This document shows positions 11,113 to 44,440 of a stretch of DNA of 64,000 nucleotides, piece after piece. Position numbers and translations under genes: made by a program. Each line of letters opens with the position of its first letter. Within the stretch, counting starts at the first letter, position 1. Location: NCBI GenBank assembly GCA_018969585.1, contig JAGWYB010000001.1, forward strand, positions 4,821 through 68,820, written 5' to 3'. The notes under the pieces were generated by a model. That model did no database searches and was not told the origin of the DNA. It worked only from the letters and a program-made list of their open reading frames with translations. The DNA comes from Actinomycetales bacterium (lineage in GTDB: Bacteria; Actinomycetota; Actinomycetes; Nanopelagicales; Nanopelagicaceae).

Positions 11113-11114
11113 TC

Positions 11115-12242: not shown

Positions 12243-12371
12243 TTCTGCCTCTCTCCGACCCTAATTCTCAACTTTAGAGTTAGGGTTCCTATTTATAGTG
12301 CGCGCAAAAGTAGGCGGGCAAGGGTTAGGTATCAAACACCGACACGATAAATCTATAAGTAAAAAATGACT

Positions 12372-13082: not shown

Positions 13083-13083
13083 G

Positions 13084-23799: not shown

Positions 23800-24201
23800 T
23801 TACTCACTAACCTTCTTCGTAACTTCAGGTTGTAGCAAAATGAACTTGGTTTTCTTATTTTCGACCATTCCTAGCGCGATTGCTTTGCGAGCAAGATTCT
23901 CTGGATCTGAAATCCGAGCTATTTCTCTAAGTGCAGCTTCACGGTCTTCAGCTAATGCGACGGCCTCTAATTTGAGGTTTTTTATCTTTACCGCATCACT
24001 GCCCAGCAAGATATTGATTCCTAGTAAACCAAGAAGCCCAATTACAAGAATTGCACCTATGACCCCGTAAAAAATGCGATCACTGGCTCGCTGGCCAGAT
24101 ACGGGTCGAAGTTCTGGGACTAATTTAAGAATTGCTCTCGAGGACTTCTCAGCAAAAACTCGCCGAGAGCGAGTTATCGGAGCGGTTAATGGAAGCGCCA
24201 T
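23800..24201 (-). CDS. FtsL-like small bitopic division protein
   Basis: 133 aa with one TM helix followed by a short coiled-coil-like segment. It lies between rsmH and ftsI and shares a TAATG overlap with rsmH. The call rests on position and topology, not on sequence motifs. Confidence 0.6.
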   Translation of the reverse strand: MALPLTAPITRSRRVFAEKSSRAILKLVPELRPVSGQRASDRIFYGVIGAILVIGLLGLLGINILLGSDAVKIKNLKLEAVALAEDREAALREIARISDPENLARKAIALGMVENKKTKFILLQPEVTKKVSE

Positions 24202-31470: not shown

Positions 31471-31510
31471 ACCGGCCTTGGTAGCGATGCCAAGGCCGGT
31501 ATCTTTATTT
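31471..31510 (+). terminator. Perfect 11-bp GC-rich hairpin plus T-rich tail after doxX
   Basis: The stem ACCGGCCTTGG/CCAAGGCCGGT closes an 8-nt loop and is followed by ATCTTTATTTA. It ends 1 nt before the ATG of the next gene. Confidence 0.65.
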
Positions 31511-31511
31511 A

Positions 31512-32255
31512 ATGGAAATCCTGGTTGCTGCTTTATGCGGCGCTGTAATCGGCTTAATACTTGGGCTGGTTGGTGCGGGCGGATCGATGATCGCAGTACC
31601 AATGCTTATTTATATCTTTAGCTTTTCTCCCGTACAGGCAACCACCGCATCACTACTCATAGTTTTTGCCGGTGCAGCAGCTGGCCTTTCCTCAAAATTT
31701 AAAAACGGAGATGTCCTGGTTAGAGATGGACTAGTTATTTGGTTCTTTGGTCTCACCACAAACTTTGCAGGTGCTTATTTCCTTCCGCAACTTCCTGAGA
31801 CATTAATTCTTACCGGATTTTCTCTAGTTCTGATCAGCGCAGGCGCTTCCATATTGTTAAAACAAGTTTCCCAGCGCGAAGAGCGACGGATGTCCATTTT
31901 CGCTTTAATCGCTTTATCCCTTCTCATAGGAGCTATGACCGGGCTCTTTGGAATCGGTGGTGGATTCGTCGCCATCCCTATCCTGATTCTTTTCTACAAC
32001 GTATCGCCTAATAAGGCGGCTGGCACCTCGCTCTTTATCATCATGATAAATACCTTGACCGGATTTATTGCACATGCGCGACATTGGGAAGAGGTCCAGT
32101 GGTCTTTACCAATAACAATTGCAATCTTCGCGCTACTTACTAGCCGGATGGCTGCGCAACAAAGCAAGCGCTTTGAAGCCGCCACCCTTAAGCGTTGGTT
32201 TGCGGGAACAGTTTTTGCAATAGCGATTTTCACTTTGCTTGAAACTTGGACCTAG
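31512..32255 (+). CDS. TauE/SafE family sulfite/anion exporter
   Basis: 247 aa polytopic protein with two internal GxGGGxxxxP-type repeats (GAGGSMIAVP and GIGGGFVAIP). Confidence 0.75.
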   Translation: MEILVAALCGAVIGLILGLVGAGGSMIAVPMLIYIFSFSPVQATTASLLIVFAGAAAGLSSKFKNGDVLVRDGLVIWFFGLTTNFAGAYFLPQLPETLILTGFSLVLISAGASILLKQVSQREERRMSIFALIALSLLIGAMTGLFGIGGGFVAIPILILFYNVSPNKAAGTSLFIIMINTLTGFIAHARHWEEVQWSLPITIAIFALLTSRMAAQQSKRFEAATLKRWFAGTVFAIAIFTLLETWT

Positions 32256-32264
32256 AATTTAGCT

Positions 32265-32753
32265 ATGGAAGGAATCCTCGAAAAATCGGCAGTTAAGCGG
32301 GCTCAGTCAGCTATCTCTGAACTTGGAATGAAAGGTGAGATTAAGATTCTTTCCGAGAGCGCACGCACTGCTCTTGATGCAGCGACTGCGCTAGGAGTTG
32401 AGGTCGGCCAGATTGCATCTTCGCTGGTATTTAAATTACCTAGCGGCGAGCCTATTCTGGTGATTACTTCCGGTCGCCATCGAGTTGATACTGGTTTAGT
32501 GGCTCGACTCGTTGAAGTTACATCTCTATCAAGAGCTGATGCCGATTTTGTTAAAGAATTCTCCGGATACTCAGTTGGTGGCGTTGCCCCTATCGGTTGG
32601 ATCAATAGAGCAAAGGAAATAATTATTGATAAGGCGCTATCAGATTACGAAGTAGTCTGGGCGGCTGCAGGTCATCCACACGCGGTTTTCCCAACAAGTT
32701 TTTCTGAGTTACAGAAAGTTACCTTGGGTCGAGTTGAAGTAGTAGGTGACTAA
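32265..32753 (+). CDS. YbaK/EbsC-type aminoacyl-tRNA deacylase domain protein
   Basis: 162 aa with a KSLVFK-like segment (SSLVFKL) and a GGVAPIG motif typical of the YbaK/ProX editing domain. Confidence 0.65.
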   Translation: MEGILEKSAVKRAQSAISELGMKGEIKILSESARTALDAATALGVEVGQIASSLVFKLPSGEPILVITSGRHRVDTGLVARLVEVTSLSRADADFVKEFSGYSVGGVAPIGWINRAKEIIIDKALSDYEVVWAAAGHPHAVFPTSFSELQKVTLGRVEVVGD

Positions 32754-33544
32754 TGCAGAGACTTAGCCATGTTATTGAAGGTGAAGGCGATCCACTACTT
32801 CTTATCCACGGAATGGGATCAGCAAGTACTGCTTGGAAATTGGTAAAACCAGAATTAAAGAGAGATTACAAAGTAATTACCGTAGATTTGCCGGGACACG
32901 GTGAAACTCCGCTCCTTGAAGGTTCTGCTATGGATCCCAATAGTTTGGCTCGCTACGTGCTACATGAAATGAGCGAATTAGGAATTGAAAAATTTGATGT
33001 TTGCGGGAACTCCCTTGGTGGCTGGGTTGCTCTTGAACTAGCTTGTCTTGCGCCAAATCGTATTAACTCTGTTATTGGACTTGCTCCAGCTGGTCTATGG
33101 CTACACCCTTATAACGTGCGTTATCCAGCGACTGCCCTGGCGCGGTTTCTCGCGAAATACACCGCGAGGATTGCTCCGGCCGCGCTCAATTTTGAATGGG
33201 CGCGCGCATTGGGATTCTGGGATGTGAGCCCTAGGTGGAAAGATTTTTCCTACGAACTCTGTCTTGATGCCGTTGAAGCAATGGGAAAAGCTGATGGCTA
33301 TTACCCTGCCTGGGATGGCATGTTGATGAAACGCTTCGATGGAAAAATCTCGAGCGAAATTCCAGTAACAATAATTTTTGGTGACACCGACCGTACCCTG
33401 CCAGCCACAAATTGTCAGGAGCGTTCCGTTGCGCCATCTCACGCAAAGTGGATTGTCTTTCCTGAAACGGGCCACGCGCCAATGTGGGATTCGCCTAGCG
33501 ATGTTGTTGCCGCCATACGTCAGACGACTCGTATTCGAAAATGA
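32753..33544 (+). CDS. Alpha/beta-fold hydrolase
   Basis: 263 aa with an HGMGS oxyanion region, the nucleophile elbow GNSLGG and a C-terminal GHAPMWD histidine motif. It is coupled by TAATG and ATGA overlaps to the genes on either side. Confidence 0.8.
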   Translation: MQRLSHVIEGEGDPLLLIHGMGSASTAWKLVKPELKRDYKVITVDLPGHGETPLLEGSAMDPNSLARYVLHEMSELGIEKFDVCGNSLGGWVALELACLAPNRINSVIGLAPAGLWLHPYNVRYPATALARFLAKYTARIAPAALNFEWARALGFWDVSPRWKDFSYELCLDAVEAMGKADGYYPAWDGMLMKRFDGKISSEIPVTIIFGDTDRTLPATNCQERSVAPSHAKWIVFPETGHAPMWDSPSDVVAAIRQTTRIRK

Positions 33545-34206
33545 TTACTCGAATATATTTTTGGAGCATTCCAAAGCGAAATCTGTTATGGGCAGTACTT
33601 CGAATGTGGTTAAACCGTAGACCTTTGAAAAATAATCCCAATATCAAATTTTGGAAGTTATTAGGTACAGGTAAAGGTTTAACATTTACCCCTCGAGACG
33701 CGGACCCAACACGATGGGGATTGCTGGTTGTGCTGGATGAGAAATCGCTAAGTGATTTCGAAAATTCTTCAGTAATCAATTCATGGAATAAACGAGCCAC
33801 TTCAAGATTTTCTGCCACGCTCCGCTGTATCTCTGTTCATGGAACGTGGTCTAGAAAAAAACCTTTCGCTCACGAAGTCGATCCTAGAGAATGGCAAGGA
33901 CGAGTAGCCGCTATCACAAGAGCGCGGATTAGATTTAGGAAGAACTTTATTTTTTGGAGAGCAGTTCCACCGGTAACTAATAGCCTGCTATCGGCTCCAG
34001 GATTAATTCGGGCCATCGGCATTGGCGAAGCCCCCATTGGATTACAAGGAACTTTTTCTCTCTGGACAGATCCACTAGCAATTAGCTCTTTTGCCTATCG
34101 CGGCGAAGCCCATAAAGAGGCAATTTCGGCAACGGCTCGAGAAAGATGGTATGCAGAAGAACTCTTTGGCAGGTTCGCAGTAATAGAGTCGAGCGGAGAG
34201 TTCTAG
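33541..34206 (+). CDS. CrtA-like (spheroidene monooxygenase / carotenoid 2-hydroxylase family) protein
   Basis: 221 aa. The N-terminal third (FWKLLGTGKGLTFTP...WGLLVV) resembles my recollection of CrtA proteins, and the gene is the first of a carotenoid-tailoring operon. The family assignment is from memory, not from a search. Confidence 0.5.
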   Translation: MITRIYFWSIPKRNLLWAVLRMWLNRRPLKNNPNIKFWKLLGTGKGLTFTPRDADPTRWGLLVVLDEKSLSDFENSSVINSWNKRATSRFSATLRCISVHGTWSRKKPFAHEVDPREWQGRVAAITRARIRFRKNFIFWRAVPPVTNSLLSAPGLIRAIGIGEAPIGLQGTFSLWTDPLAISSFAYRGEAHKEAISATARERWYAEELFGRFAVIESSGEF

Positions 34207-34229
34207 TCAGACTAGGGCAGACTTAGCCC

Positions 34230-35036
34230 ATGTCGATACGGAATTTCCGACCGCCAAGAGATTTACGGCGTCGTATCACTCCAATTCAAAGTGCTATTTC
34301 GATAGCCGTATTAACCGTAGCTATCGCACTACAAATCTCATATCCGCTTCTCAAAGACGAGCCGTTACGTTTGGTGACAATTGCCTTTGTTTACTGGGCC
34401 GCTGGCGCCATGTTATTGCACGCTCTTTTTGCTTACCGAATCGGATTCGCAGTTCGATTTCTCTTGATCACATTCACTTACTCTCTCATCATTGAGCAGA
34501 TTGGCTTTAGAACTACTTGGCCGTTCGGAGCGTATGAATATTCTGGATCTCTGGGATATCAAATATTTGGCGTGCCTTTAGTAGTGCCATTTGCTTGGGT
34601 AATGATGGCTTATCCACTATTTATCGCCGCTCGCCGAATTGCTCCGAAATGGGTTTTTCTGGTCGGAGGTTACGGTTTAATGTCGTGGGATCTATTTCTA
34701 GATCCGTTAATGGTCTCTGCTGGGCGTTGGACTTGGGAAATCACGGGCCGCACTGTTCCTTTTCAACCTGAAATTCCTCTTTCGAACACACTTGGCTGGT
34801 TTTTAACTGGAATGGGATTGATGGCAATTCTCGATCGTTTAATTCAGAAAGAAAGAAGGTCAGTCGGCGTAAGCAGAGCGATACCAGAAATTTTTCTATT
34901 CTGGAGCTGGGTAAGTGGCGTTATCGGGAATCTATTCTTTTTCGATCGGCCAGGTGTAGCTCTAATTGGTGGAATCGCTCTAGGAATAATTGTTTTTTGG
35001 TATTTCTTAGCAGTGAAATTTGGACGAAGTGATTAA
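34230..35036 (+). CDS. Carotenoid biosynthesis membrane protein (CruF-like 1,2-hydratase family)
   Basis: 268 aa polytopic protein with Trp-rich loops (SWDLFLDPLMVSAGRWTWE). It lies between the CrtA-like and glycosyltransferase genes. Confidence 0.5.
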   Translation: MSIRNFRPPRDLRRRITPIQSAISIAVLTVAIALQISYPLLKDEPLRLVTIAFVYWAAGAMLLHALFAYRIGFAVRFLLITFTYSLIIEQIGFRTTWPFGAYEYSGSLGYQIFGVPLVVPFAWVMMAYPLFIAARRIAPKWVFLVGGYGLMSWDLFLDPLMVSAGRWTWEITGRTVPFQPEIPLSNTLGWFLTGMGLMAILDRLIQKERRSVGVSRAIPEIFLFWSWVSGVIGNLFFFDRPGVALIGGIALGIIVFWYFLAVKFGRSD

Positions 35037-36127
35037 TGTTCTATTTCATTTTTATTTGGGCCCCAACCGCCTTTATTACTTTGATGCTGATCATCACGAC
35101 TTACAATTTTTTCACAATAAGAAGACCTCGCCAAACTGATAAATCAATTTCACAGAAAGTATCTATATTGATACCTATGCGAAATGAACAACATAATGCT
35201 CAAGATTCAGTATCTTCAGCGCTAAGTCAGAAACTGCTTCCAAAACTTGAAATTATTGTTCGTGATGATCAATCTACCGATAAGACTCTTAGTATTTTGC
35301 AACAATTCAGCGACAATCGATTATCGGTTCAAACAGGAAATCTTCTTCCAAGTGGATGGCTCGGAAAGCCCTACGCGATGGCGGAGTTAGCGAATGCAGC
35401 ACAAGGTGAGTATTTGATATTTTTGGATGCAGATGTCCGGTTGACTCCAAATGCTGTTGCAGACTCCATTTCTTTATTAGAGGAGTTAAATCTTGATTAT
35501 TTATCTCCTTATCCAAGACAGTTAGTTGGTGATTGGCTCAGCGGTCTGGTTCAGCCGCTACTGCAGTGGTCCTGGTTTTCGACCCTACCGATTCGCGGAA
35601 ACGAGCGCAGTCTTCGGCGATCTATCGTTGTTGCCAACGGACAATTCTTCATCGTCAGACGTTCCGCCTATTTTGCTGTTGCGGGTCACTCAAGCATTCG
35701 AAGCGAGGTAATCGACGATCTCGAGCTTGCTCGACTACTTCGTAGGAATGGTTATCGAGGTAGCGTCGTTGATGGATCAAGTATTGCTACCTGCTTAATG
35801 TACGAAAATTTTAATCAATTGTTAGAAGGCTACTTAAAGTCACAATGGCGAGCATTTGGCTCAATCTCAGGGGCCATTTTTGCAATTCTATTTCTTACTC
35901 TTACTTCAATCGCACCGGCTGTATTGGCGATATCTGGAAATATCTGGGCTGCGGTTGCGACTTTTGGAATCATAATTACTCGACTACTTGCAGCCTGGAA
36001 AACTCGATCAATAGCTTGGAGCTCCTTCTTGCATCCCCTTTCAATTTCAATTTGGATTTTTATCATCATCTCCTCATTGGTGCTAAAACAAAGAGGAAAA
36101 CTTTTTTGGCGAGGCCGCCCAATATGA
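35036..36127 (+). CDS. Family 2 glycosyltransferase (carotenoid glycosyltransferase candidate, CruC/CrtQ-like)
   Basis: 363 aa with a GT2 core (VSILIPMRNE, a DxD motif in FLDADV, NGQFFIVRR) followed by C-terminal TM helices. TAATG and ATGA overlaps couple it to both neighbours. Confidence 0.7.
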   Translation: MFYFIFIWAPTAFITLMLIITTYNFFTIRRPRQTDKSISQKVSILIPMRNEQHNAQDSVSSALSQKLLPKLEIIVRDDQSTDKTLSILQQFSDNRLSVQTGNLLPSGWLGKPYAMAELANAAQGEYLIFLDADVRLTPNAVADSISLLEELNLDYLSPYPRQLVGDWLSGLVQPLLQWSWFSTLPIRGNERSLRRSIVVANGQFFIVRRSAYFAVAGHSSIRSEVIDDLELARLLRRNGYRGSVVDGSSIATCLMYENFNQLLEGYLKSQWRAFGSISGAIFAILFLTLTSIAPAVLAISGNIWAAVATFGIIITRLLAAWKTRSIAWSSFLHPLSISIWIFIIISSLVLKQRGKLFWRGRPI

Positions 36128-37662
36128 AGCACCATCGCAAAAGCACCTCCCCAAAAAAAGTCGTTGTAATTGGCGCAGGTATGGCTGGATTGGCGTGCGC
36201 TGCCAGACTTGCAAAATTGGGGCATGAAGTGAAAATCTTTGAAGCAAGCGATCAAGTTGGTGGAAAATGCCGGACACTTTGGATTGAAGGATTTGGTTTC
36301 GATATTGGACCTTCTCTTTTAACGCTTCCGGCTGTGTACAAAGATTTGTTTCTTAAGACGGGTGGCCCGTCAGATTTAATTTCTGATCTAGAACCAGTCA
36401 ATCCTGCCTTCGCTTACCATTTCACAAATGGGAAGGTAATTCGTTTTCCAAATCTCTCTCATTCGGGTGTTGTCGATTCAATAAGTAAAGAACTTGGTAA
36501 TGAACAAGGAGCAGTTTGGGATCGATTATTAAAGCGGGCTGAATCAATGTGGGATGCTTCGAGAGAGGACTTCATTGAAGGTGAATTACGTAGCATCTGG
36601 CCTTTCCTTCAAAGAAAGAATCTGCTGCGCGACATAAAAACCATTGCGCCTTGGCTCTCGCTTCGCAAATTGACTAAACAAGAAGGCGCCGGGGATGAAA
36701 TTTCAAAGATAGTTGATAGATACGCAACCTATACTGGATCTGACCCCAGAAAAGTTCCTGCGGTATTACTGACTATCGCATTTGTTGAAGAAGCATTCGG
36801 AGCCTGGCATATCAAAGGTGGACTAGGTCGCCTTCCTATTGCATTGGCCGAACGAGTAAAGAAACTTGGCGGATCAATAAGTCTTAATTCTCCAGTAAAA
36901 GAATTAGTTTTAAGAAATGGCAGAGTGAGTGGAATTGTTCTCGAGAGTAACGAGACTATTGATGCTGAAATTGTAATTTCTAACGTTGATTCTGAGATTT
37001 TGTATAACAAACTTATTCCGAGGGGCGCCTCAAAACTCAAGACCAGATCCGAACGCAAATCAATCTCTAGATCTACGAGATCATTTTCAGGCTTTAGTCT
37101 CTTACTTGCGCTTGATGGAAGATCAGATGTAAATCATCATACGGTTCTCTTTCCAGAAAATTATGATTCGGAATTCGATTCGTTATTCAGAGATAAAATT
37201 CCACCGGCTGATCCAGCGATTTATATATGTAATCCAGAAGATCCGACACTCGTTCCCGGTAAGAACTTGGAGTCTTGGTTCGTGTTGGTAAACGCTCCCC
37301 TGCATGACCCAAAAAGTGGATTTGATTGGAATAGTCCTGGAGTGAAGAAGCAATACGCAGATTTAATTCTTTCAAAAATCGAAGAACGTGGAATCTCTGT
37401 ACGAAGTCGAATTCGGTTTATGAAGATTAGGACTCCGTATGATTTGGAAATTGAGAGCCGTGCTCCGGGAGGATCTATTTACGGGCCTTCAAGCAACGGG
37501 TCTCGTTCAGCATTCCTGAGGGCTAAGAATCGAAGTGCCATTCCAGGGTTATATTGCGTTGGCGGCTCTGCACATCCTGGCGGAGGATTACCGCTAGTTG
37601 CAATCAGCGCAGAGATTGTCGCAAATGCAATCTCAGAACAAGAAACAAACGAAGTGAACTAG
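36124..37662 (+). CDS. CrtI-family carotenoid desaturase (CrtD-like)
   Basis: I place the start at ATG 36124 (MKHHRKSTSPKKVVVIGAGMAGLACAARL...), which gives an FAD-binding GxGxxG N-terminus. The C-terminus carries GLYCVGGSAHPGGGLP. The 605-aa ORF in the track is an in-frame upstream extension through the GT gene. Confidence 0.8.
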   Translation: MKHHRKSTSPKKVVVIGAGMAGLACAARLAKLGHEVKIFEASDQVGGKCRTLWIEGFGFDIGPSLLTLPAVYKDLFLKTGGPSDLISDLEPVNPAFAYHFTNGKVIRFPNLSHSGVVDSISKELGNEQGAVWDRLLKRAESMWDASREDFIEGELRSIWPFLQRKNLLRDIKTIAPWLSLRKLTKQEGAGDEISKIVDRYATYTGSDPRKVPAVLLTIAFVEEAFGAWHIKGGLGRLPIALAERVKKLGGSISLNSPVKELVLRNGRVSGIVLESNETIDAEIVISNVDSEILYNKLIPRGASKLKTRSERKSISRSTRSFSGFSLLLALDGRSDVNHHTVLFPENYDSEFDSLFRDKIPPADPAIYICNPEDPTLVPGKNLESWFVLVNAPLHDPKSGFDWNSPGVKKQYADLILSKIEERGISVRSRIRFMKIRTPYDLEIESRAPGGSIYGPSSNGSRSAFLRAKNRSAIPGLYCVGGSAHPGGGLPLVAISAEIVANAISEQETNEVN

Positions 37663-38242
37663 AAGCTTGTAAAGCGAGCATCAAATAAGCGATTACAGAG
37701 ATGTAGTCGAAGGCAACGATGTCGAGAGCGCGTAAAAATATTGCGATGAAGATAAGTGAAGCTCTAACAGGGCGCTCAGACCAAGTAACAATTATTATCT
37801 CCGTTACGCCAAGGCTGTTTGATCTCGCCCTCATGTACTCCTGTAGGTATGCCGCTAGCCAAATTATCAAGATCGGCTGCCAAGGGGCTCCGATAATATA
37901 TAGTCCTAAAAGCCAGAAAACTTCAACAATTCGATCTGCGACGGAATCGAGAAGCGCTCCGTATTTAGTAGTTTTTTCGCCAATAATCGCAACTGATCCA
38001 TCAATTCCATCGAGTAATAGTGACAAGATCAGAAAAAGAAGTGCCCAATTTGATTTAGCTGACAGTAAGAATGCCGCTCCAAAAACTACCGAAATATATG
38101 AAAGTGTATTCGGGGTAACTCTTAGTTTGACTAGCGGTAGCGATATCCAATAACTAATGGAAAGCCAAACTTTGACAATTCCTTTAACTTGAGCGCTGCC
38201 ATGCAGTTCGCTCCATTTATTGAAGAAATCCTCTATTTTCAT
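37604..38242 (-). CDS. CDP-alcohol phosphatidyltransferase family protein
   Basis: 212 aa polytopic protein with the motif DGIDGSVAI-x10-GALLDSVAD. This is a variant of DGxxAR...GxxxDxxxD in which Ile replaces the Arg. Its 3-prime end overlaps the CrtD-like gene by 59 nt in convergent orientation. Confidence 0.75.
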   Translation of the reverse strand: MKIEDFFNKWSELHGSAQVKGIVKVWLSISYWISLPLVKLRVTPNTLSYISVVFGAAFLLSAKSNWALLFLILSLLLDGIDGSVAIIGEKTTKYGALLDSVADRIVEVFWLLGLYIIGAPWQPILIIWLAAYLQEYMRARSNSLGVTEIIIVTWSERPVRASLIFIAIFLRALDIVAFDYISVIAYLMLALQASSSLRLFLVLRLHLRQSLR

Positions 38243-39084
38243 CGCAAACCTATTCTCTTAACGATTTCAATAGTTGAGCTAGCCGAATTCATAGTATAAA
38301 AATGAAGTCCCGGCACTCCGGCATCCATCAAATCTGAGCATAATTTAGTTGCTAAATCAATTCCAATCTCCCTAACCATCTCCACATTTTCAGAAACTGG
38401 TGTTAGTTTTTCGACTATACTGTTGGGAATTTCAGTTCCACTCAACTGAGCCATACGGTTTAGCTGTTTAAAGTTGGTTATTGGAAGAATTCCAGCAATT
38501 AAAGTTAGTTTGGATCCAGCGGCTTCAAGCGCTTCTTTTAGCTTTATGTATTTAGAGACTGAAAAAAAGAATTGCGTAGTAGCAAAAGTTGCGCCTCGAC
38601 GCTCTTTTTCTAGCAATACCTTTATATCTTCTTGGAGACTAGAAGAAGCTGGGTGACCATCCGGGAATGCAGCTACACCAACCTCAAAGTTTTTTTGGTG
38701 AGCAATTGAAACCAATTCATCGGAATGATCTAGTCCTCCTGGAGTAGGAATCCACTTTGCACTTGGTCCGCCCTCTGGATCGCCTCGCAAAGCGAGTATC
38801 GATTTGATTCCGGACTCGGTATAACTATCTAAAATGGCCTCTAATTCGAACCTGGTTGCTCCGACACATGTCAGGTGAGCAACTGTCGGAATGCCCGTAC
38901 GCTTTGTAATTTCTCCAGTTACTTTTACAGTTCGATCGCGAGCGCTTCCGCCAGCTCCATATGTAACCGATACAAAATCTGGTTCATATTGTGCGAGCGA
39001 GGTGAGCGCTTTCCAGAGTCTCTCCTCCCCCTCGCCATCGCGAGGTGGGAAGAATTCCAGGGAAAAAGGGGGCGTTACTCTCAC
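38239..39084 (-). CDS. metF: Methylenetetrahydrofolate reductase
   Basis: 281 aa with a GTG start and FSLEFFPP, VTYGAGGS and LRGDP motifs. Confidence 0.88.
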   Translation of the reverse strand: MRVTPPFSLEFFPPRDGEGEERLWKALTSLAQYEPDFVSVTYGAGGSARDRTVKVTGEITKRTGIPTVAHLTCVGATRFELEAILDSYTESGIKSILALRGDPEGGPSAKWIPTPGGLDHSDELVSIAHQKNFEVGVAAFPDGHPASSSLQEDIKVLLEKERRGATFATTQFFFSVSKYIKLKEALEAAGSKLTLIAGILPITNFKQLNRMAQLSGTEIPNSIVEKLTPVSENVEMVREIGIDLATKLCSDLMDAGVPGLHFYTMNSASSTIEIVKRIGLR

Positions 39085-39106
39085 GAGTTGAGGGTACCGT
39101 TACGCC

Positions 39107-40171
39107 GTGCCGAGTACCTCTTTAAACTCTGTCAGAACTGAAATTGAAGATTCCCTCTCTTTTTTTGTGAAGGGTAAGGCGGAAAAGCTCAACAATATTG
39201 ATGAATACCTGCAACCGATAAGTAAATCATTATCTGAATACATTTTGGCTGGAGGGAAACGATTTAGACCTGTCTTTGCCTACTTGGGTTTTCTAGGAGC
39301 TGGCGGAGCTGCAGATCCAAAGATAGCCAGAGCCTGCGCGGCTCTTGAGTTAGTTCACGTTTGTGCACTTATCCATGATGATCTAATGGATGGTTCAGAT
39401 ACTAGAAGAAATCGCCAATCAATTCATCGAGAATTTCAGAACTATCACGACGAAGCCAAATATTTTGGAAGCTCTGAAAATTATGGAGCATCCGTGGCAA
39501 TTTTGCTGGGAGATCTTTCCCTTGTTTGGAGCGACGAATTGCTTTTCTCTTCAGGAATTGCCACGGAACAACTTAATCAAGCTCTTCCAATTTTTTACGA
39601 TATGCGTGAAGAGTTAATGGCGGGACAGTATTTAGATGTTCTAGAGAGTGTAATCGGCAAATCGAGTAAATCGCGTTCCTCGAAAATTGCTCAACTAAAA
39701 TCTGGTAAATATTCGATTGAAAGACCCCTCCAATTTGGAGCTGCGCTTTCGGGAGCTAATCCAAAACTGCTTGATGACTTTTCAAAGTTTGGCCTTGCCC
39801 TTGGAGAGGCTTTCCAACTTCGAGATGACCTTCTCGGTATTTTTGGTGAGCCAAATGTCACCGGTAAGCCGAGCGGTGATGATATTCGAGAGGGTAAGCG
39901 AACCCTCTTAATTGCTCTGACTCTAGAGAGGTGTAATGAACCAGAGCGTCGCCTGCTCGAAAAATCTCTTGGGGAAAAGACCTTAGATAACTCCGCAATC
40001 GCTGAAATTCAGGAGTTGATTTCAAGATGCGGAGCCAAGGGCGAGTGCGAGAGACTTATAGCCGAGCTCTTTGATCAGTCTATGGAAAATCTAGAGAAGT
40101 CAGATTGCATTGACGAGATTAAAGCTTTACTCGCAGAAATGGCCAAGGCCGCGACCCAGAGGGAGAAGTAA
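39107..40171 (+). CDS. crtE: Polyprenyl (geranylgeranyl) diphosphate synthase
   Basis: 354 aa with a GTG start, the first Asp-rich motif LIHDDLMDGSDTRR and the second, FQLRDDLLG. It lies immediately upstream of crtI-crtB. Confidence 0.85.
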   Translation: MPSTSLNSVRTEIEDSLSFFVKGKAEKLNNIDEYLQPISKSLSEYILAGGKRFRPVFAYLGFLGAGGAADPKIARACAALELVHVCALIHDDLMDGSDTRRNRQSIHREFQNYHDEAKYFGSSENYGASVAILLGDLSLVWSDELLFSSGIATEQLNQALPIFYDMREELMAGQYLDVLESVIGKSSKSRSSKIAQLKSGKYSIERPLQFGAALSGANPKLLDDFSKFGLALGEAFQLRDDLLGIFGEPNVTGKPSGDDIREGKRTLLIALTLERCNEPERRLLEKSLGEKTLDNSAIAEIQELISRCGAKGECERLIAELFDQSMENLEKSDCIDEIKALLAEMAKAATQREK

Positions 40172-40176
40172 ACAAG

Positions 40177-41661
40177 ATGCGCACTGTGACCGGCCCAACT
40201 GAGAAAGTTGTGATTGTTGGCGCTGGCCTCGCTGGATTGAGCGCCGCCATAAGATTGCTTGGAGCAGGTCGCGATGTAACTATCTTGGAACGAGAATCAT
40301 TTCCAGGCGGAAGAAATGGTCTACTAACTAAATCCGGATATGCATTTGATACCGGTCCAACGGTTCTGACTATGCCCTCGCTAATAGAAGATGTCATGGC
40401 ATCGGTTGGGGAGAATTTAGCTGACTGGTTAACTCTAATGCCGTTACAACCTCTTTATCGAGCTTTCTATAGCGATGGCAGCACAATGGATGTGCACTCC
40501 AACACTGAAGAAATGGAGGCGGAAATTGCCAGAGTAATTGGTGGCGACGAAGCTGCTGGCTATAGAAAATATGTTGATTTCGTAACGAAGTTATATAAGT
40601 ACGAAATGAATGACTTTATTGATAAGAATATTGATACGCCATTTGATCTACTTACACCTAATTTAGCGCGATTAATTGCTATCGGGGGATTTCGAAGGCT
40701 TGCTCCAAAAGTTGCACAGTTCTTAAAAGATCCTAGAACTCAAAGAATCTATTCTTTCCAGGCCATGTACGCAGGCGTTTCACCTCAACAAGCCCTTGCC
40801 ATCTATGCCGTTATTGCATATATGGATGCGGTTAACGGAGTCTTCTTTCCTAAAGGTGGTATGCACGCAGTGCCGCGAGCCCTAGCAGCAATAGCAACTA
40901 AACATGGCGCCAAAATTCATTATAAATCTAAAGTTACTCGACTCGAAAAACGTGGTAAGCGAGTAGTCGCTGCAATTACGGAAGATGGCACTCGATATGA
41001 ATGTGATGTTGCCATACTAAATCCCGACTTGCCTGTTGCTTATACCGAGTTACTTGAAAGACCATTGCGGCGAATAAAGAAGTTAGAGTATTCACCTTCA
41101 TGCGCCGTTCTTTTGGCGGGATCAAAAAAGAAATATTCGCACATCGCGCATCACAATATTCATTTTGGTGATTCCTGGGATGGCGTTTTTGAAGAGTTAA
41201 TTGATAAGAAGAAACTTATGAGCGATCCCAGTCTCCTAGTGACTGTTCCCAGCAAAGACGATAGTTCTTTGGCTCCAAAAGATCGTGAAAGTTATTACGT
41301 ATTATTTCCTACGCCAAACTTAAGCGCGAATATCGATTGGAAAACCGAATCTTTAAGATATCGCGATGAAATGGTGCGGGTCTTGGAAACTCGAGGTTAT
41401 GAGGGTTTTGGAGATGCGATTGAAGTAGAGCATCTAACTACGCCGCTGGAATGGGAGGAGATGGGGCTTGAGATGGGTGCTCCTTTTGCTAGCGCTCATA
41501 CATTCACGCAAACCGGACCATTCAGGCCAAATAACTTAGCTCGCGGTTTCGAAAATGTAGTTTTCACTGGCAGCGGAACACAACCAGGTGTCGGCGTTCC
41601 CATGGTGATAATTTCAGGAAAGTTAGCCGCAGAACGCATACTCGGTGCGAAGCGTGGATGA
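40177..41661 (+). CDS. crtI: Phytoene desaturase
   Basis: 494 aa with the N-terminal VVIVGAGLAGLSAA motif and a C-terminal FTGSGTQPGVGVPMV segment. Confidence 0.9.
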   Translation: MRTVTGPTEKVVIVGAGLAGLSAAIRLLGAGRDVTILERESFPGGRNGLLTKSGYAFDTGPTVLTMPSLIEDVMASVGENLADWLTLMPLQPLYRAFYSDGSTMDVHSNTEEMEAEIARVIGGDEAAGYRKYVDFVTKLYKYEMNDFIDKNIDTPFDLLTPNLARLIAIGGFRRLAPKVAQFLKDPRTQRIYSFQAMYAGVSPQQALAIYAVIAYMDAVNGVFFPKGGMHAVPRALAAIATKHGAKIHYKSKVTRLEKRGKRVVAAITEDGTRYECDVAILNPDLPVAYTELLERPLRRIKKLEYSPSCAVLLAGSKKKYSHIAHHNIHFGDSWDGVFEELIDKKKLMSDPSLLVTVPSKDDSSLAPKDRESYYVLFPTPNLSANIDWKTESLRYRDEMVRVLETRGYEGFGDAIEVEHLTTPLEWEEMGLEMGAPFASAHTFTQTGPFRPNNLARGFENVVFTGSGTQPGVGVPMVIISGKLAAERILGAKRG

Positions 41662-42562
41662 ACTCACTTCTGCAGGAATAACTGATTCTGAACTTAGAAA
41701 ATCCTATTTGGAGTGTAAACGACTAAATTCGCTTCACGGCAAAACATACTTCCTGGCTACATTGCTGTTACCTAAAGCTAAGAGACCTTTTGTGCATTCA
41801 CTGTATGGCTTCGCCAGATACGCAGATGAAATTGTAGACGCAATGGATCCCCAGAGATCGCCGGCCTCGCGTCGAGAAGAACTTGAACAGTGGAGTTGGA
41901 AGATGCTCCAAGATATTAAGCGTGGCGAGAGCGAAGATTTAATTGGAATGGCGCTCGTGGATACGGTTAAACGTTTTGATATTTCGATTTCATACTTCGA
42001 GGCATTCTTGCACTCTATGGCCATGGATCTAGAAGTTAATGAATACTCGAACTATGAAGCTTTGATGGAGTACGTCTACGGTTCTGCCGCGGTAATTGGA
42101 CTTCAAATGCTCCCCATACTTGGCTTTGAGCAAAGTCACGAACAGGAATCAAAAAATGCAGCACAAAATTTAGGAATTGCCTTTCAGCTTGCAAATTTCA
42201 TTCGAGATATCGGTGAAGATTTGGATCGAGGTCGAATTTATCTCCCGCTAGATGAGTTAAAGAGTTTTGGTGTCGATAGAGAGAAGCTGGAGAGGAGGGT
42301 TCTGACTGAAGAGATTTCTCATGCTATTAAATTCCAAATTTCAAGGGTGCGAGATCTGCAGAGTAAAGCTGCGATTGGAATTCAGTATCTAGAAGAAAGT
42401 TCTCAACCTTGCATCGAAGCAGCCAGCGAGTTGTATTGTGGAATTGTCGATGAAGTTGAAAATATCGATTATCAAGTTTTTGCAAAGAGAGCCAAAACTT
42501 CTACGCTGCGTCGATTAAAAGTTGCGCTTCCCGCTTGGGCAAGAGCAATTGCGGCACGCTAG
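41645..42562 (+). CDS. crtB: Phytoene synthase
   Basis: 305 aa with YGFARYADEIVD and FQLANFIRDIGEDLDRGRIYLP motifs. The GTG start overlaps the end of crtI. Confidence 0.9.
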   Translation: MRSVDELTSAGITDSELRKSYLECKRLNSLHGKTYFLATLLLPKAKRPFVHSLYGFARYADEIVDAMDPQRSPASRREELEQWSWKMLQDIKRGESEDLIGMALVDTVKRFDISISYFEAFLHSMAMDLEVNEYSNYEALMEYVYGSAAVIGLQMLPILGFEQSHEQESKNAAQNLGIAFQLANFIRDIGEDLDRGRIYLPLDELKSFGVDREKLERRVLTEEISHAIKFQISRVRDLQSKAAIGIQYLEESSQPCIEAASELYCGIVDEVENIDYQVFAKRAKTSTLRRLKVALPAWARAIAAR

Positions 42563-42864
42563 TCTCGCTGAACACCTCGCCGTCCCCAGTAAATCCAAAG
42601 GGACATAGTTAAAGTAACCATTGAAAAACCAAAAAATAGATCCTCGACGGGGGCAGACGCAATTCGTAGTCCAATGATGACTGATTCGTTATATGTAAGA
42701 ATTCCTCTTGAAGTAAGCCACCAATTAGTTATCAATTGAAAAAATAGAATAATCGAGTAGGCGGTCCAAAAACCTTTTCTTGTAGTCAAACGGGTTCTCA
42801 GAACTAGATAGTCAATCAATAGAACTAGAAAGACCGAAAGAATAGCTAACTGTGTATACGTCAC
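42559..42864 (-). CDS. crtYd: Lycopene cyclase domain protein (heterodimeric cyclase subunit)
   Basis: 101 aa with three TM helices, coupled by an ATGA-type overlap to the preceding small cyclase-domain gene. Confidence 0.75.
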   Translation of the reverse strand: MTYTQLAILSVFLVLLIDYLVLRTRLTTRKGFWTAYSIILFFQLITNWWLTSRGILTYNESVIIGLRIASAPVEDLFFGFSMVTLTMSLWIYWGRRGVQRD

Positions 42865-43217
42865 GCTTCGTCACCAAATTTCCAGTGTCGCTTCTGAGTA
42901 CGAACAGCTTCTATCGTCAAGAGTGAAGCTAGCGGTACAACAATGAAGAATAAGAATTCCTCTAACGGGATTCCCTTGGGTCCAAAAATTCCCACAACCT
43001 GCTCTTTATCAAACCACCAATGCCCGCTTACAACGGCGTAGTAATCCCAAACTAAGAAAATTATTGCTGTGGGGATAATGGATAGTACGGCCCTTTTCAA
43101 TCTGCGAAGAACTCCCACCTTAAGAAAAATTTCAAGCCAGATAGATCCCACCACAGTGAAAAGGAGCATTGCAAAGTAAGAGAATTTCAGCACGCCGTAT
43201 GCTAACCTTCGAATCAA
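42861..43217 (-). CDS. crtYc: Lycopene cyclase domain protein (heterodimeric cyclase subunit)
   Basis: 118 aa with three TM helices and a PLEEFLFF motif typical of CrtYc/CrtYd-type cyclase halves. Confidence 0.75.
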   Translation of the reverse strand: MIRRLAYGVLKFSYFAMLLFTVVGSIWLEIFLKVGVLRRLKRAVLSIIPTAIIFLVWDYYAVVSGHWWFDKEQVVGIFGPKGIPLEEFLFFIVVPLASLLTIEAVRTQKRHWKFGDEA

Positions 43218-43298
43218 TCGGGAGCCAAAAGTTGGCTGAGAGGACCTTCGGGTCGACCGTTAGACCAGTTTGATAATGCGAATTGGAAAGGATAAAAA

Positions 43299-43880
43299 AT
43301 GATCACAATTTTTAATGCGTGGAATTATGAAGTTACTTTGCTGGAGTTTATCTCCGTCGTAACTTCTCTAATTGCGGTTTATCTGGGGGCTCGAGGGGTT
43401 CGAATCGCCTGGCCTTGGTGGATCTTAAGTAGCGCTTTATACGCAATCTTCTTCCTGCAAGTTGACCTATTCGCAAGTGCGCTTCTACAACTGATATTTA
43501 TTGCCGCAGCTATCTGGGGATTATTTGGCTGGAAGGCCACGGGTGTGGAGCCGCGATCGATGACTTGGCTGGAGCGAGTTCTCTGGTTAGGTGCGCTCAT
43601 TATTCTTTGGACGGCTACGGCTCCCATACTCGAAGAAGTTGGGGCTGCAGCTTCTTGGCCTGATTCGCTGTTGCTCGTATCGAGCGCCATTGCGCAAATT
43701 TTGATGGTACTTCAGCGAAATGAAACTTGGATCTTATGGATTCTCATCGATACTTTCGGAACTTGGCACTATTTCCGTCAAGATCTCTTCTTTACTAGTT
43801 TGTTGTATTTTGTTTTCACGCTAATTGCGATTTATGGACTAGTGCGCTGGCGAAGCAGGTCTAGATGGCAAAATCCTTAG
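43299..43880 (+). CDS. pnuC: PnuC-family nicotinamide riboside (or related vitamin) transporter
   Basis: 193 aa polytopic protein with Trp-rich helices (AWPWWILSS, WILWILID). Confidence 0.8.
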   Translation: MITIFNAWNYEVTLLEFISVVTSLIAVYLGARGVRIAWPWWILSSALYAIFFLQVDLFASALLQLIFIAAAIWGLFGWKATGVEPRSMTWLERVLWLGALIILWTATAPILEEVGAAASWPDSLLLVSSAIAQILMVLQRNETWILWILIDTFGTWHYFRQDLFFTSLLYFVFTLIAIYGLVRWRSRSRWQNP

Positions 43881-44431
43881 ACGAACTTTTGCAATTAATC
43901 ACCAAACAACCTCCGCTGAACAAGAAGTCTTACTTGATATCTATTGATGGCCCTGCTGGGGCTGGAAAAACTACTTTAGCCGCTCGAATTAGTAGCTCTT
44001 GGAAGCAAGGCAAAGTCCATACGATTCATATGGATGATATTTATGATGGTTGGGAAAATGCTCTCACGGAAACTTTGACGCGAACTCTAGAGAATCAGAT
44101 ATTAAGACCGCTACACCTCGGAAAGCGAGCTTCGCTAAGAAAATTCAATTGGCTGACCTCAAGTTTTGGAGATTTTTATCAAATACCAGATGCGAATCTC
44201 TACTTGTTTGAGGGTGTCGGAAGCGCTCAAAAAGTGACTCGAAAATACCTGGATCAAATTATTTGGATCGATATTGATCAAGAAGTTGGGTTACAGCGCG
44301 TGCTTCGTCGAGATGGCGATTATCTTGAGAATGAAATGAGAATCTGGCAACAGCGAGAACTATCCCACTTTGAACTCGAAAACACTCGAGATTGTGCCAC
44401 CTTCCGCTTCGATGGGAACTTCTTCATCTAA
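43865..44431 (+). CDS. Small P-loop kinase, uridine kinase / Nrk1-like
   Basis: 188 aa with the Walker A motif IDGPAGAGKTTLA followed by HMDDIYDGW (compare the xDDFY motif of Udk/Nrk kinases). The start overlaps the end of pnuC by 16 nt. Confidence 0.6.
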   Translation: MAKSLDELLQLITKQPPLNKKSYLISIDGPAGAGKTTLAARISSSWKQGKVHTIHMDDIYDGWENALTETLTRTLENQILRPLHLGKRASLRKFNWLTSSFGDFYQIPDANLYLFEGVGSAQKVTRKYLDQIIWIDIDQEVGLQRVLRRDGDYLENEMRIWQQRELSHFELENTRDCATFRFDGNFFI

Positions 44432-44440
44432 AATCCTCGT

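What the first reader, a model, noticed from the sequence alone, without database searches (positions are those of the whole stretch)
33541..37662. Second carotenoid operon predicting a myxol-like monocyclic carotenoid glycoside
Four + strand genes are tightly packed. The last three share TAATG/ATGA overlaps, and the first is ATGA-coupled to the upstream hydrolase. They are a CrtA-like protein, a CruF-like membrane protein, a GT2 glycosyltransferase and a CrtI-family (CrtD-like) desaturase.

In characterised pathways CruF adds water across the 1',2' bond of the open end of gamma-carotene or lycopene. CrtD introduces the 3',4' double bond. CrtA-type enzymes oxygenate C-2; in Flavobacterium they act as a 2'-hydroxylase for myxol. 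CruC/CrtQ-type GT2 enzymes glycosylate the tertiary hydroxyl.

Together with the nearby crtE-I-B and crtYc/Yd genes, this predicts a monocyclic, hydroxylated and glycosylated xanthophyll of the myxoxanthophyll, salinixanthin or deinoxanthin type. Such a product would differ from the plain beta-carotene/retinal route. Pigments of that type act as light-harvesting antennae on xanthorhodopsin-type proton pumps, so this operon is a candidate antenna-pigment pathway. No rhodopsin, blh, crtZ or crtO/crtW gene lies in this window.
Basis: partly seen in the sequence, partly recalled or inferred. Interest (0 to 1): 0.65.

Follow-up and report, generated by a model that had tools for sequence, protein, structure and literature searches.

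The report
Known acI carotenoid-glycoside ("actinoxanthin") operon
This is the second carotenoid operon already described in freshwater acI Actinobacteria, predicted but never shown to make a deoxymyxol-type glycoside, so the gene calls are right but it is a rediscovery and the antenna idea stays untested.

Summary
Four + strand genes lie at 33541-37662: a CrtA-like protein (221 aa), CruF (268 aa), a family-2 glycosyltransferase (GT2, 363 aa) and a CrtD-like desaturase (512 aa, ATG at 36124).

The window comes from a Nanopelagicaceae (acI) actinobacterium. The same array, with an ATGA-coupled alpha/beta-hydrolase in front and crtE-I-B plus crtYc/Yd behind, recurs in 23 acI genome loci.

Dwulit-Smith et al. 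2018 (bioRxiv 10.1101/367102) already described exactly this operon. They proposed gamma-carotene as the starting point for a hydroxylated, desaturated, glycosylated and acylated product, "actinoxanthin", as a possible actinorhodopsin antenna. No later experimental work turned up in the library.

This analysis adds three points:
- **Last gene.** It is CrtD-like, not a CrtO ketolase: 294 bits against 65 bits, and Frankiales relatives carry a separate CrtO-like gene.
- **Hydrolase.** Its overlap with crtA and its Ser-Asp-His triad are conserved across acI.
- **Ring chemistry.** The window has no ketolase, ring hydroxylase, rhodopsin or blh gene. The predicted beta-ring is therefore unsubstituted, which does not fit known antenna-binding rules.

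The product is best predicted as a deoxymyxol (plectaniaxanthin)-type glycoside, possibly acylated, rather than the salinixanthin or deinoxanthin type.

Verdict: already known, low interest.

The parts
31471..31500 (+). Terminator-like hairpin (13-bp stem, 8 G-C pairs, T-rich tail) that closes the upstream DoxX gene. It marks the likely 5' limit of the + strand gene run.
31512..32255 (+). TauE/SafE-family membrane protein (247 aa). It is the first gene of the co-directional run. Whether it belongs to the carotenoid unit is uncertain.
   Evidence: PF01925, 149 bits. Syntenic in acI loci.
32265..32753 (+). YbaK/aminoacyl-tRNA-editing-domain protein (162 aa), TAATG-coupled to the hydrolase gene. 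Membership is uncertain.
   Evidence: PF04073, 82.6 bits. Junction read. In acI loci L014, L015, L017 and L021 it is separated from the hydrolase by 0.4-1.4 kb.
32753..33544 (+). Alpha/beta-hydrolase (263 aa), the 'acI-acyltransferase' of the published operon. It is the inferred acyl-transferase or esterase acting on the carotenoid glycoside.
   Evidence: PF12697/PF00561. The ATGA overlap with crtA-like is kept in 20 of 23 acI loci. Ser87 (GNSLG), Asp211 and His241 are conserved in all 25 homologues aligned at those positions; the Ser87 region is missing from one partial sequence of the 26.
33541..34206 (+). CrtA-like carotenoid C-2(') oxygenase (221 aa).
   Evidence: NF045923: E 3.7e-47, 160.5 bits, full length, below the cut-off of 300. 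5647 homologues, some named spheroidene monooxygenase in Nanopelagicaceae MAGs. AlphaFold2 model with tandem ferredoxin-like/ABM fold.
34230..35036 (+). CruF-family carotenoid 1',2'-hydratase (268 aa, membrane protein).
   Evidence: PF04240, 109.7 bits. TIGR03460, 96.8 bits, below its cut-off. Five hydrophobic segments.
35036..36127 (+). GT2 glycosyltransferase (363 aa), CruG-like, membrane-anchored.
   Evidence: PF00535, 73.8 bits. The best NCBIfam match is CruG, 109 bits, against a cut-off of 600. LDAD motif at residue 130; N- and C-terminal hydrophobic segments.
36124..37662 (+). CrtI-family, CrtD-like 1-hydroxycarotenoid 3',4'-desaturase (512 aa).
   Evidence: TIGR02734, 296.7 bits, above its cut-off. 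CrtD model NF045637, 293.8 bits. CrtO model, only 65 bits. 44% identical to the CrtD-like genes of L034 and L037, and 25% identical to the L037 CrtO-like gene.
39107..42562 (+). crtE (39107-40171), crtI (40177-41661) and crtB (41645-42562): the lycopene operon that supplies the substrate.
   Evidence: acI CrtE, CrtB and CrtI were shown to make lycopene in E. coli (10.1101/367102).
42559..43217 (-). crtYd (42559-42864) and crtYc (42861-43217): heterodimeric lycopene cyclase that supplies gamma- and beta-carotene.
   Evidence: PF18916 and TIGR03462.

Best explanation
The region is the 'actinoxanthin' operon of a freshwater acI (Nanopelagicaceae) actinobacterium. Its genes, in order, are an alpha/beta-hydrolase, crtA-like, cruF, a CruG-like GT2 and crtD-like. 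They are probably transcribed as one unit, just upstream of the lycopene operon crtE-I-B and the cyclase genes crtYc/Yd.

**Inferred mechanism.**
1. CrtE, CrtB and CrtI make lycopene.
2. CrtYc/Yd closes one end to give gamma-carotene.
3. CruF adds water across the 1',2' bond of the open end.
4. The CrtD-like flavoenzyme introduces the 3',4' double bond, giving 1'-hydroxytorulene.
5. The CrtA-like oxygenase hydroxylates C-2', giving deoxymyxol (plectaniaxanthin).
6. The membrane-anchored GT2 glycosylates one of the two open-end hydroxyls.
7. The Ser-Asp-His hydrolase-fold protein probably acylates the sugar.

The window encodes no ring ketolase or ring hydroxylase, so the beta-ring should stay unsubstituted.

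**Likely cellular role.** A membrane-embedded photoprotective or antioxidant xanthophyll is the most likely role. A rhodopsin-antenna role is possible but not favoured.

**Shown here.** Gene identities at family level, the junctions, the lineage and the conserved synteny.

**Inferred.** Every catalytic step, the order of the steps, the product and its role.
For: - **Gene families:**
- **Junctions:**
- **Lineage:** the closest genome loci are Ca. Nanopelagicaceae MAGs, with CrtA-like 85-88% identical.
- **Synteny:** hyd-crtA-cruF-GT2-crtD, then CDP-OH transferase (-) and MTHFR (-), then crtE-I-B, then crtYd/Yc (-). This holds in 23 acI loci, including Ca. Planktophila.
- **Hydrolase coupling:** the hyd/crtA 4-nt overlap is kept in 20 of 23 acI loci, and the catalytic triad is conserved.
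- **Gene calls:** independent calls of 263/221/268/363/512 aa in four of the public assembly contigs that carry the identical CrtA-like protein, which is indexed in 174 blocks of the collection.
- **CrtD, not CrtO:** 293.8 bits against 65 bits for the window protein. A genuine CrtO-like paralogue in L037 scores 240.8 bits against 86 bits, and pairwise identities agree.
- **Published description (10.1101/367102):** the same operon and pathway, with metatranscriptome reads spanning the intergenic regions from the acyltransferase gene through crtD.
- **Experimental precedent (PMC11855829):** CrtY+CruF+CrtD+CrtA-OH convert lycopene to deoxymyxol in E. coli.
- **CrtA-like fold:** a tandem ferredoxin-like/ABM monooxygenase-type fold (pLDDT 83). 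It resembles cofactor-independent and haem enzymes.
Against: - No enzyme of this operon has been assayed, from acI or from this window.
- The CrtA, CruF-equivalog, CruG and CrtD matches are all below NCBIfam equivalog cut-offs, so substrate and regiospecificity are not established.
- Actinobacterial CrtA-like proteins score about 160 bits on the purple-bacterial ketolase model, and Bacteroidota homologues score 221 bits. Sequence therefore does not separate hydroxylase from ketolase.
- An alpha/beta-hydrolase is not the known carotenoid-glycoside acyltransferase type. By my own recollection, CruD is unrelated.
- acI needs beta-carotene for retinal, so the flux that leaves as gamma-carotene is unknown.
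- The pigment has never been isolated. The library search for 'actinoxanthin' found only the 2018 paper.
Confidence: 0.75

Rival explanations
1. Same operon, different chemistry at C-2'. The CrtA-like enzyme would act as a 2-ketolase, as in purple bacteria. The product would be a 1'-hydroxy-2'-keto-3',4'-didehydro-gamma-carotene derivative glycosylated on the tertiary 1'-OH.
For: The only curated model that matches is the Rhodobacter spheroidene monooxygenase (ketolase), NF045923. Sequence does not discriminate hydroxylase from ketolase.
Against: The only non-phototroph CrtA homologues tested, from Flavobacterium P99-3 and Nonlabens, are 2'-hydroxylases (PMC11855829). The GT2 resembles CruG, a 2'-O-glycosyltransferase, which needs a 2'-OH. 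The paper states that CrtA ketolases are found only in purple bacteria.
Confidence: 0.15
2. The operon works mainly on acyclic lycopene rather than gamma-carotene. It would modify one or both open ends to give acyclic hydroxy or glycosylated carotenoids, while the cyclase serves only retinal synthesis.
For: The figure legend of PMC11855829 lists hydroxylycopene among the E. coli products. CrtA-CruF-GT2-CrtD modules also occur in other Actinomycetota loci where no cyclase was found within the fetched flanks, for example L025, L030 and L031.
Against: crtYc/Yd sit next to the cluster in every complete acI locus. The published model starts from gamma-carotene.
Confidence: 0.15
3. The product is a dedicated light-harvesting antenna for actinorhodopsin, as the first reader and Dwulit-Smith et al. 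suggested.
For: acI actinorhodopsins have the Gly that opens the fenestration (10.1101/367102). A native carotenoid of the luna-1 actinobacterium Ca. Aquiluna binds its actinorhodopsin and speeds the initial pumping rate (PMC8113403).
Against: No rhodopsin lies in the window. The window holds no ketolase or ring hydroxylase gene. The 4-keto group is crucial for binding in XR and GR, and beta-carotene with an unsubstituted ring does not bind the xanthorhodopsin Kin4B8. The Gly is necessary but not sufficient.
Confidence: 0.15
4. The 512-aa CrtI-family protein is a CrtO-type beta-ring ketolase, the alternative raised by Dwulit-Smith et al. That would give a salinixanthin-like 4-keto product.
For: CrtI-family members are hard to assign by homology, and the authors left this open.
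Against: The window protein scores 65 bits on the CrtO model and 293.8 bits on the CrtD model. Frankiales-type relatives carry both a CrtO-like gene (240.8 bits on CrtO) and an orthologue of the window gene in the same position. The window protein is 44% identical to that orthologue and 25% identical to the CrtO-like gene.
Confidence: 0.05

Closest known systems
acI 'actinoxanthin' operon (acyltransferase-crtA-cruF-cruG-crtD) of Dwulit-Smith et al. 2018 (bioRxiv 10.1101/367102; they note it was first mentioned in their reference 3)
   Same: Same lineage (Nanopelagicaceae/acI). Same five genes in the same order. Same position upstream of crtE-I-B, with crtYd tail-to-tail with crtB. Same predicted pathway and the same antenna hypothesis.
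   Different: Nothing essential. This window is another genome of the lineage, with 50-90% protein identity to other acI loci. Here the hydrolase-crtA overlap is seen in all acI groups sampled, whereas the paper cites it only for acI-C. The CrtD/CrtO ambiguity is resolved towards CrtD.
Myxol pathway of Flavobacteriia (Flavobacterium P99-3; Nonlabens spongiae, PMC11855829)
   Same: The CrtY + CruF + CrtD + CrtA-OH enzyme set acts on the open end of gamma-carotene. In E. coli this set was shown to give deoxymyxol.
   Different: The flavobacterial cluster has CrtZ, which gives 3-OH and hence myxol, and no glycosyltransferase or hydrolase. Its cyclase is a single CrtY rather than CrtYc/Yd. The acI CrtA-like protein is only 36-37% identical to the two Bacteroidota homologues that were sampled.
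Myxoxanthophyll pathway of cyanobacteria (CruF, CrtD, CruG; Synechococcus PCC 7002)
   Same: A CruF-family hydratase and a GT2 whose best curated match is CruG, the 2'-O-glycosyltransferase. The product is a monocyclic carotenoid glycoside.
   Different: The cyanobacterial CruF, CruG and CrtD equivalog models are all missed by a wide margin: 48.6 of 400, 109 of 600 and 75.5 of 550 bits. By my own recollection, cyanobacteria have no CrtA-type 2'-hydroxylase and do hydroxylate the ring with CrtR.
Salinixanthin / xanthorhodopsin antenna system of Salinibacter ruber
   Same: A monocyclic carotenoid acyl-glycoside made with a CruF-type hydratase, a glycosyltransferase and an acyltransferase, in an organism with a xanthorhodopsin-family pump.
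   Different: Salinixanthin carries a 4-keto ring (CrtO) that is essential for binding. No ketolase is present here. The putative acyltransferase is an alpha/beta-hydrolase. No rhodopsin is nearby.

Membership tests
acI actinoxanthin operon (Dwulit-Smith 2018) | Contiguous genes for acyltransferase (alpha/beta-hydrolase), crtA, cruF, cruG and crtD on one strand | tested here: met
   junctions
acI actinoxanthin operon (Dwulit-Smith 2018) | Located upstream of the crtE-I-B lycopene operon, with crtYd tail-to-tail with crtB | tested here: met
   the same layout in 23 acI loci
acI actinoxanthin operon (Dwulit-Smith 2018) | Host is an acI / Nanopelagicaceae actinobacterium | tested here: met
   The closest genome loci are Ca. 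Nanopelagicaceae MAGs at 85-88% identity, and Ca. Planktophila at 53%. G+C is about 44%. The backbone is actinobacterial, with a dcw cluster and a PASTA kinase.
acI actinoxanthin operon (Dwulit-Smith 2018) | Co-transcription from the acyltransferase gene through crtD | not testable with these tools
   Only the published metatranscriptome of genome ME885 bears on this. Here there are overlapping or 23-nt junctions, and no strong terminator-like site inside the array.
CrtA spheroidene monooxygenase family (NCBIfam NF045923) | Score at or above the equivalog cut-off (300 bits) | tested here: not met
   160.5 bits, E 3.7e-47, aligned over 208 of 226 model positions. It is a homologue, not an equivalog.
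CrtA-OH carotenoid 2'-hydroxylase (Flavobacterium P99-3 type) | Hydroxylates C-2' of 1'-hydroxytorulene | not testable with these tools
   No reference sequence or model was available. Bacteroidota homologues are 36-37% identical. The activity is known only from PMC11855829 and its reference 19.
CruF / Caroten_synth (Pfam PF04240) | Pfam gathering score | tested here: met
   109.7 bits against 25
CruF gamma-carotene 1'-hydroxylase equivalog (NF045693) and bisanhydrobacterioruberin hydratase (TIGR03460) | Equivalog cut-offs (400 and 154.7 bits) | tested here: not met
   48.6 and 96.8 bits
CruG 2'-O-glycosyltransferase (NF045692) | Equivalog cut-off (600 bits) | tested here: not met
   109.2 bits; it is still the best of 23 NCBIfam matches. 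General GT2 membership (PF00535) is met, and the LDAD motif is present.
CrtI family (TIGR02734) | Subfamily cut-off (238.1 bits); N-terminal GxGxxG; C-terminal GG-rich motif | tested here: met
   296.7 bits. GAGMAG at residue 17 and GGSAHPGGG at residue 480.
CrtD 1-hydroxycarotenoid 3,4-desaturase (NF045637, NF042421) | Equivalog cut-offs (580 and 500 bits) | tested here: not met
   293.8 and 233.8 bits. After the CrtI-family model these are the best specific models, and both are higher than the window's own CrtI scores on them (265.8 and 204.6).
CrtO beta-carotene ketolase (NF045689) | Similarity to the CrtO model | tested here: not met
   65 bits against a cut-off of 1000. A CrtO-like control from L037 gives 240.8 bits.
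Xanthorhodopsin-type carotenoid antenna system | Rhodopsin with a fenestration Gly, plus a carotenoid carrying a 4-keto or 3-hydroxy ring | tested here: not met
   Within the window there is no rhodopsin motif and no ketolase or ring hydroxylase among the 45 ORFs scanned. The rest of the genome was not available.

The most novel reading that the evidence does not exclude
The acI product, a deoxymyxol-type acyl-glycoside with an unsubstituted beta-ring, might still bind actinorhodopsin or the acI heliorhodopsin and transfer energy. That would reveal a third carotenoid-binding mode that needs neither a 4-keto nor a 3-hydroxy ring. The alpha/beta-hydrolase, and perhaps the YbaK-like editing-domain protein coupled to it, would then be a new type of carotenoid-glycoside acyltransferase system.
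Probability: 0.1. Interest if true: 0.7.

Novelty: already known. Interest (0 to 1): 0.2.

Why it matters
acI Actinobacteria can make up as much as half of the cells in lake surface waters (10.1101/367102). Whether their second carotenoid branch only protects them from light, or also feeds light energy into actinorhodopsin, therefore bears on freshwater energy budgets.

That question was posed in 2018 and is still open. This window does not make it more testable than the published genomes do. It adds another syntenic example. It also adds two modest refinements: the last gene is a desaturase rather than a ketolase, and the predicted ring is unsubstituted, which weakens the antenna idea.

Tried and rejected
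- **Sequence search of solved structures** with a CrtA-like profile found nothing meaningful (E 0.34).
- **Rfam scan** of the whole window found no riboswitch or other RNA family that could point to regulation.
- **Promoter scan** found fewer sigma-70-like sites than the shuffled controls (6 against 21.2). It was not informative for operon starts.
- **Separating hydroxylase from ketolase** by scoring Bacteroidota and actinobacterial CrtA homologues on the one curated CrtA model was inconclusive.
- **Looking for an alternative acyltransferase** in the gaps of non-acI loci. The L034 247-aa ORF and two L037 ORFs matched no NCBIfam family and may be spurious ORFs in high-GC DNA.
- **Literature searches** for later experimental work on 'actinoxanthin' or acI/Planktophila carotenoid glycosides found none in the library.
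- **CrtO-ketolase reading of the 512-aa gene** was considered and rejected.
- **Non-carotenoid role for the GT2 and hydrolase** (cell-envelope genes adjacent by chance) was considered and rejected. They are start/stop-coupled to carotenoid genes across the family.
- **CruC versus CruG** could not be tested, because no CruC reference was at hand.

Full report
**1. What is in the sequence**

The region holds four + strand ORFs: 33541-34206 (221 aa), 34230-35036 (268 aa), 35036-36127 (363 aa), and a CrtI-family ORF ending at 37662.

The junctions read directly from the DNA are as follows:
- ATGA between the upstream hydrolase and the 221-aa gene.
- A 23-nt spacer before the 268-aa gene.
- TAATG between the 268-aa and 363-aa genes.
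- ATGA between the 363-aa gene and ATG 36124 of the last gene.

Starting at 36124, the last product is 512 aa. That is also the length given by independent gene calls on four public assembly contigs that carry the identical 221-aa protein.

**2. Family assignments**

| Protein | Match | Score | Curated cut-off |
|---|---|---|---|
| 268 aa | Pfam Caroten_synth/CruF (PF04240) | 109.7 bits | 25 |
| 363 aa | GT2 (PF00535) | 73.8 bits | 23.3 |
| 363 aa | NCBIfam CruG, 2'-O-glycosyltransferase (best of 23) | 109 bits | 600 |
| 512 aa | crtI_fam (TIGR02734) | 296.7 bits | 238.1 |
| 512 aa | CrtD (NF045637) | 293.8 bits | 580 |
| 512 aa | CrtO ketolase (NF045689) | 65 bits | 1000 |
| 221 aa | Spheroidene monooxygenase CrtA (NF045923) | 160.5 bits, E 3.7e-47 | 300 |

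- The 221-aa protein has no Pfam family. Its match to the CrtA model runs end to end.
- Family-level membership is therefore met for CruF, GT2 and CrtI. The CrtA and CrtD labels rest on clear homology that falls short of equivalog level.
- Sequence features expected of active enzymes are present:
  - GAGMAG and GGSAHPGGG in the desaturase.
  - LDAD in the GT2.
  - GNSLG, Asp211 and His241 in the hydrolase.

**3. Context**

- Downstream lie a convergent CDP-alcohol phosphatidyltransferase gene and an MTHFR gene on the - strand. After them come crtE, crtI and crtB on the + strand, and crtYd/crtYc on the - strand.
- Upstream, the co-directional run continues through the alpha/beta-hydrolase (32753-33544), a YbaK-like editing-domain gene (32265-32753, TAATG-coupled) and a TauE gene (31512-32255).
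- That run begins immediately after a strong terminator-like hairpin at 31471-31500.
- The rest of the window is mostly housekeeping genes: the dcw cell-division cluster, a PASTA kinase, DAHP synthase, PFK and others.
- No RYxDW rhodopsin motif occurs in any of the six frames. No blh, crtZ, crtW or crtO family was found among the 45 ORFs scanned.

**4. Where it comes from and how conserved it is**

- A scan of one genome per species found 38 loci with a CrtA-like relative. The closest, at 85-88% identity, are Ca. Nanopelagicaceae or Actinomycetota MAGs. Ca. Planktophila is at 53%.
- A tblastn synteny script showed the full array in 23 acI loci. The array is TauE, YbaK-like, hydrolase, crtA, cruF, GT2, crtD, then CDP-OH transferase (-) and MTHFR (-), then crtE-I-B, then crtYd/Yc (-).
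- The 4-nt hydrolase/crtA overlap is kept in 20 of the 23 loci. The GT2/crtD overlap and the short crtA/cruF spacer are also typical.
- The YbaK-like gene is separable. In four acI loci, 0.4-1.4 kb is inserted between it and the hydrolase.
- More distant Actinomycetota keep a crtA ... cruF-GT2-crtD module. These are Frankiales MAGs, Quadrisphaera and uncultured lineages.
- In three of those loci (L030, L031, L037) an extra CrtI-family gene lies between crtA and cruF. In L037 that gene scores 240.8 bits on the CrtO model and 86 bits on CrtD.

**5. It is already described**

Dwulit-Smith et al. (bioRxiv 10.1101/367102, 2018) report the following for acI clades A, B and C:
- Metatranscriptome reads span its intergenic regions.
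- The proposed pathway runs from gamma-carotene through desaturation (CrtD), two hydroxylations (CrtA, CruF), glycosylation (CruG) and acylation, to a product they name actinoxanthin.
- That product is suggested either as an actinorhodopsin antenna or as a photoprotectant.

They state that the gene group had already been noted in an earlier genome paper, their reference 3. Searches for later experimental work found none in the library.

**6. What the present analysis adds**

- **(a) The last gene is a desaturase, not a ketolase.** The 2018 paper left open whether it is CrtD or a CrtO ketolase. Three lines of evidence favour CrtD:
  - The scores are 293.8 bits on CrtD and 65 bits on CrtO.
  - Related Actinomycetota carry both a CrtO-like gene and a positional orthologue of the window gene.
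  - Pairwise identities are 44% to that orthologue and 25% to the CrtO-like gene.
- **(b) The predicted ring is unsubstituted.**
  - The acI operon has no ketolase, and the window has no ring hydroxylase, so the predicted beta-ring is unsubstituted.
  - The best-supported product is a deoxymyxol (plectaniaxanthin)-type glycoside, possibly acylated. It is not of the salinixanthin or deinoxanthin type.
  - The chemistry has direct precedent. Nonlabens CrtY+CruF+CrtD+CrtA-OH convert lycopene in E. coli through 1'-OH-gamma-carotene and 1'-OH-torulene to deoxymyxol (PMC11855829).
- **(c) The hydrolase belongs to the operon.** The conserved overlap and the conserved Ser-Asp-His triad support this. 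They do not show whether it is an acyltransferase or an esterase.
- **(d) Fold of the CrtA-like protein.**
  - It models confidently (pLDDT 83, pTM 0.83) as two ferredoxin-like halves.
  - Foldseek matches anthrone-oxidase-like and ABM monooxygenases. By TM-score the best matches are the haem enzymes aldoxime dehydratase (TMq 0.55-0.58) and HmoB.
  - His191 is invariant and His100 nearly so among the acI homologues.
  - This fits an oxygenase. It does not decide between a hydroxylase and a ketolase, and neither does scoring on the single curated CrtA model.

**7. The antenna hypothesis**

- **In favour.**
  - acI actinorhodopsins have the fenestration Gly.
  - A native carotenoid of the luna-1 actinobacterium Ca. 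Aquiluna binds its actinorhodopsin (PMC8113403).
- **Against.**
  - In xanthorhodopsin and Gloeobacter rhodopsin the 4-keto group is crucial for binding.
  - In Kin4B8 the 3-hydroxy group matters, and beta-carotene does not bind.
  - The product predicted from this window has neither group.

A ring-modifying enzyme elsewhere in the genome cannot be excluded. I therefore rate photoprotection or membrane function as the more likely role and an antenna role at about 0.15.

**8. Verdict**

The whole picture has been in the literature since 2018 for this very lineage. Novelty: already known. Interest: low (0.2).

Noticed in passing
window 31471-32753: The + strand run that contains the operon starts right after a strong terminator-like hairpin (31471-31500), with a TauE/SafE gene and a YbaK/tRNA-editing-domain gene. 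The YbaK-like gene is TAATG-coupled to the hydrolase. It also sits directly upstream of crtA in non-acI Actinomycetota loci (L026, L033, L037). In four acI loci, however, 0.4-1.4 kb is inserted after it.
   Followed up: partly
window 37604-37662 and 42559-42562: There are two convergent gene overlaps. The 3' end of crtD-like overlaps the 3' end of the - strand CDP-alcohol phosphatidyltransferase gene by 59 nt. crtB and crtYd overlap tail-to-tail by 4 nt. Neither overlap leaves room for an intergenic terminator.
   Followed up: no
L037:11186-12751 (also L030 and L031, about 11.9-12.7 kb): Frankiales-type relatives carry an extra CrtO-like ketolase gene between crtA and cruF (240.8 bits on the CrtO model). 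Those lineages may make a 4-keto version of the pigment, and acI lacks that gene.
   Followed up: partly
window 52083-53579: A 498-aa ORF matches DPRP, the deoxyribodipyrimidine photolyase-related (cryptochrome/photolyase-like) family. It is a second light-related gene in the window, and it is not linked to the carotenoid genes.
   Followed up: no
window 33541-34206: The CrtA-like protein has no Pfam family at the thresholds used. Its model is a tandem ferredoxin-like (ABM-type) fold resembling haem and cofactor-free oxygenases. His191 is invariant and His100 nearly invariant in 26 acI homologues. A few database relatives carry a precomputed PF11695 hit.
   Followed up: partly
window 33541-34206 / L039-L042: The identical 221-aa protein is indexed in 174 blocks of public assemblies. 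The organism is therefore an abundant, repeatedly sampled population.
   Followed up: no
window 9761-25157 and 38239-46336: The carotenoid genes are embedded in a conserved actinobacterial backbone: the dcw cell-division cluster, then MTHFR, a polyprenyl synthase and a PASTA Ser/Thr kinase. The crtE product's best curated match is a mycobacterial farnesyl/geranyl diphosphate synthase model (291.7 bits, below its cut-off). The 236-aa ORF at 12372-13082 inside the dcw cluster has no Pfam hit at E<=1e-5.
   Followed up: no
L034:6135-6878 and L033, about 12.8-13.4 kb: In Quadrisphaera and one uncultured Actinomycetota locus, about 0.5-0.8 kb lies between GT2 and crtD. The 247-aa ORF there matches no NCBIfam family. 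It could be an extra pathway gene or a spurious ORF in high-GC DNA.
   Followed up: partly
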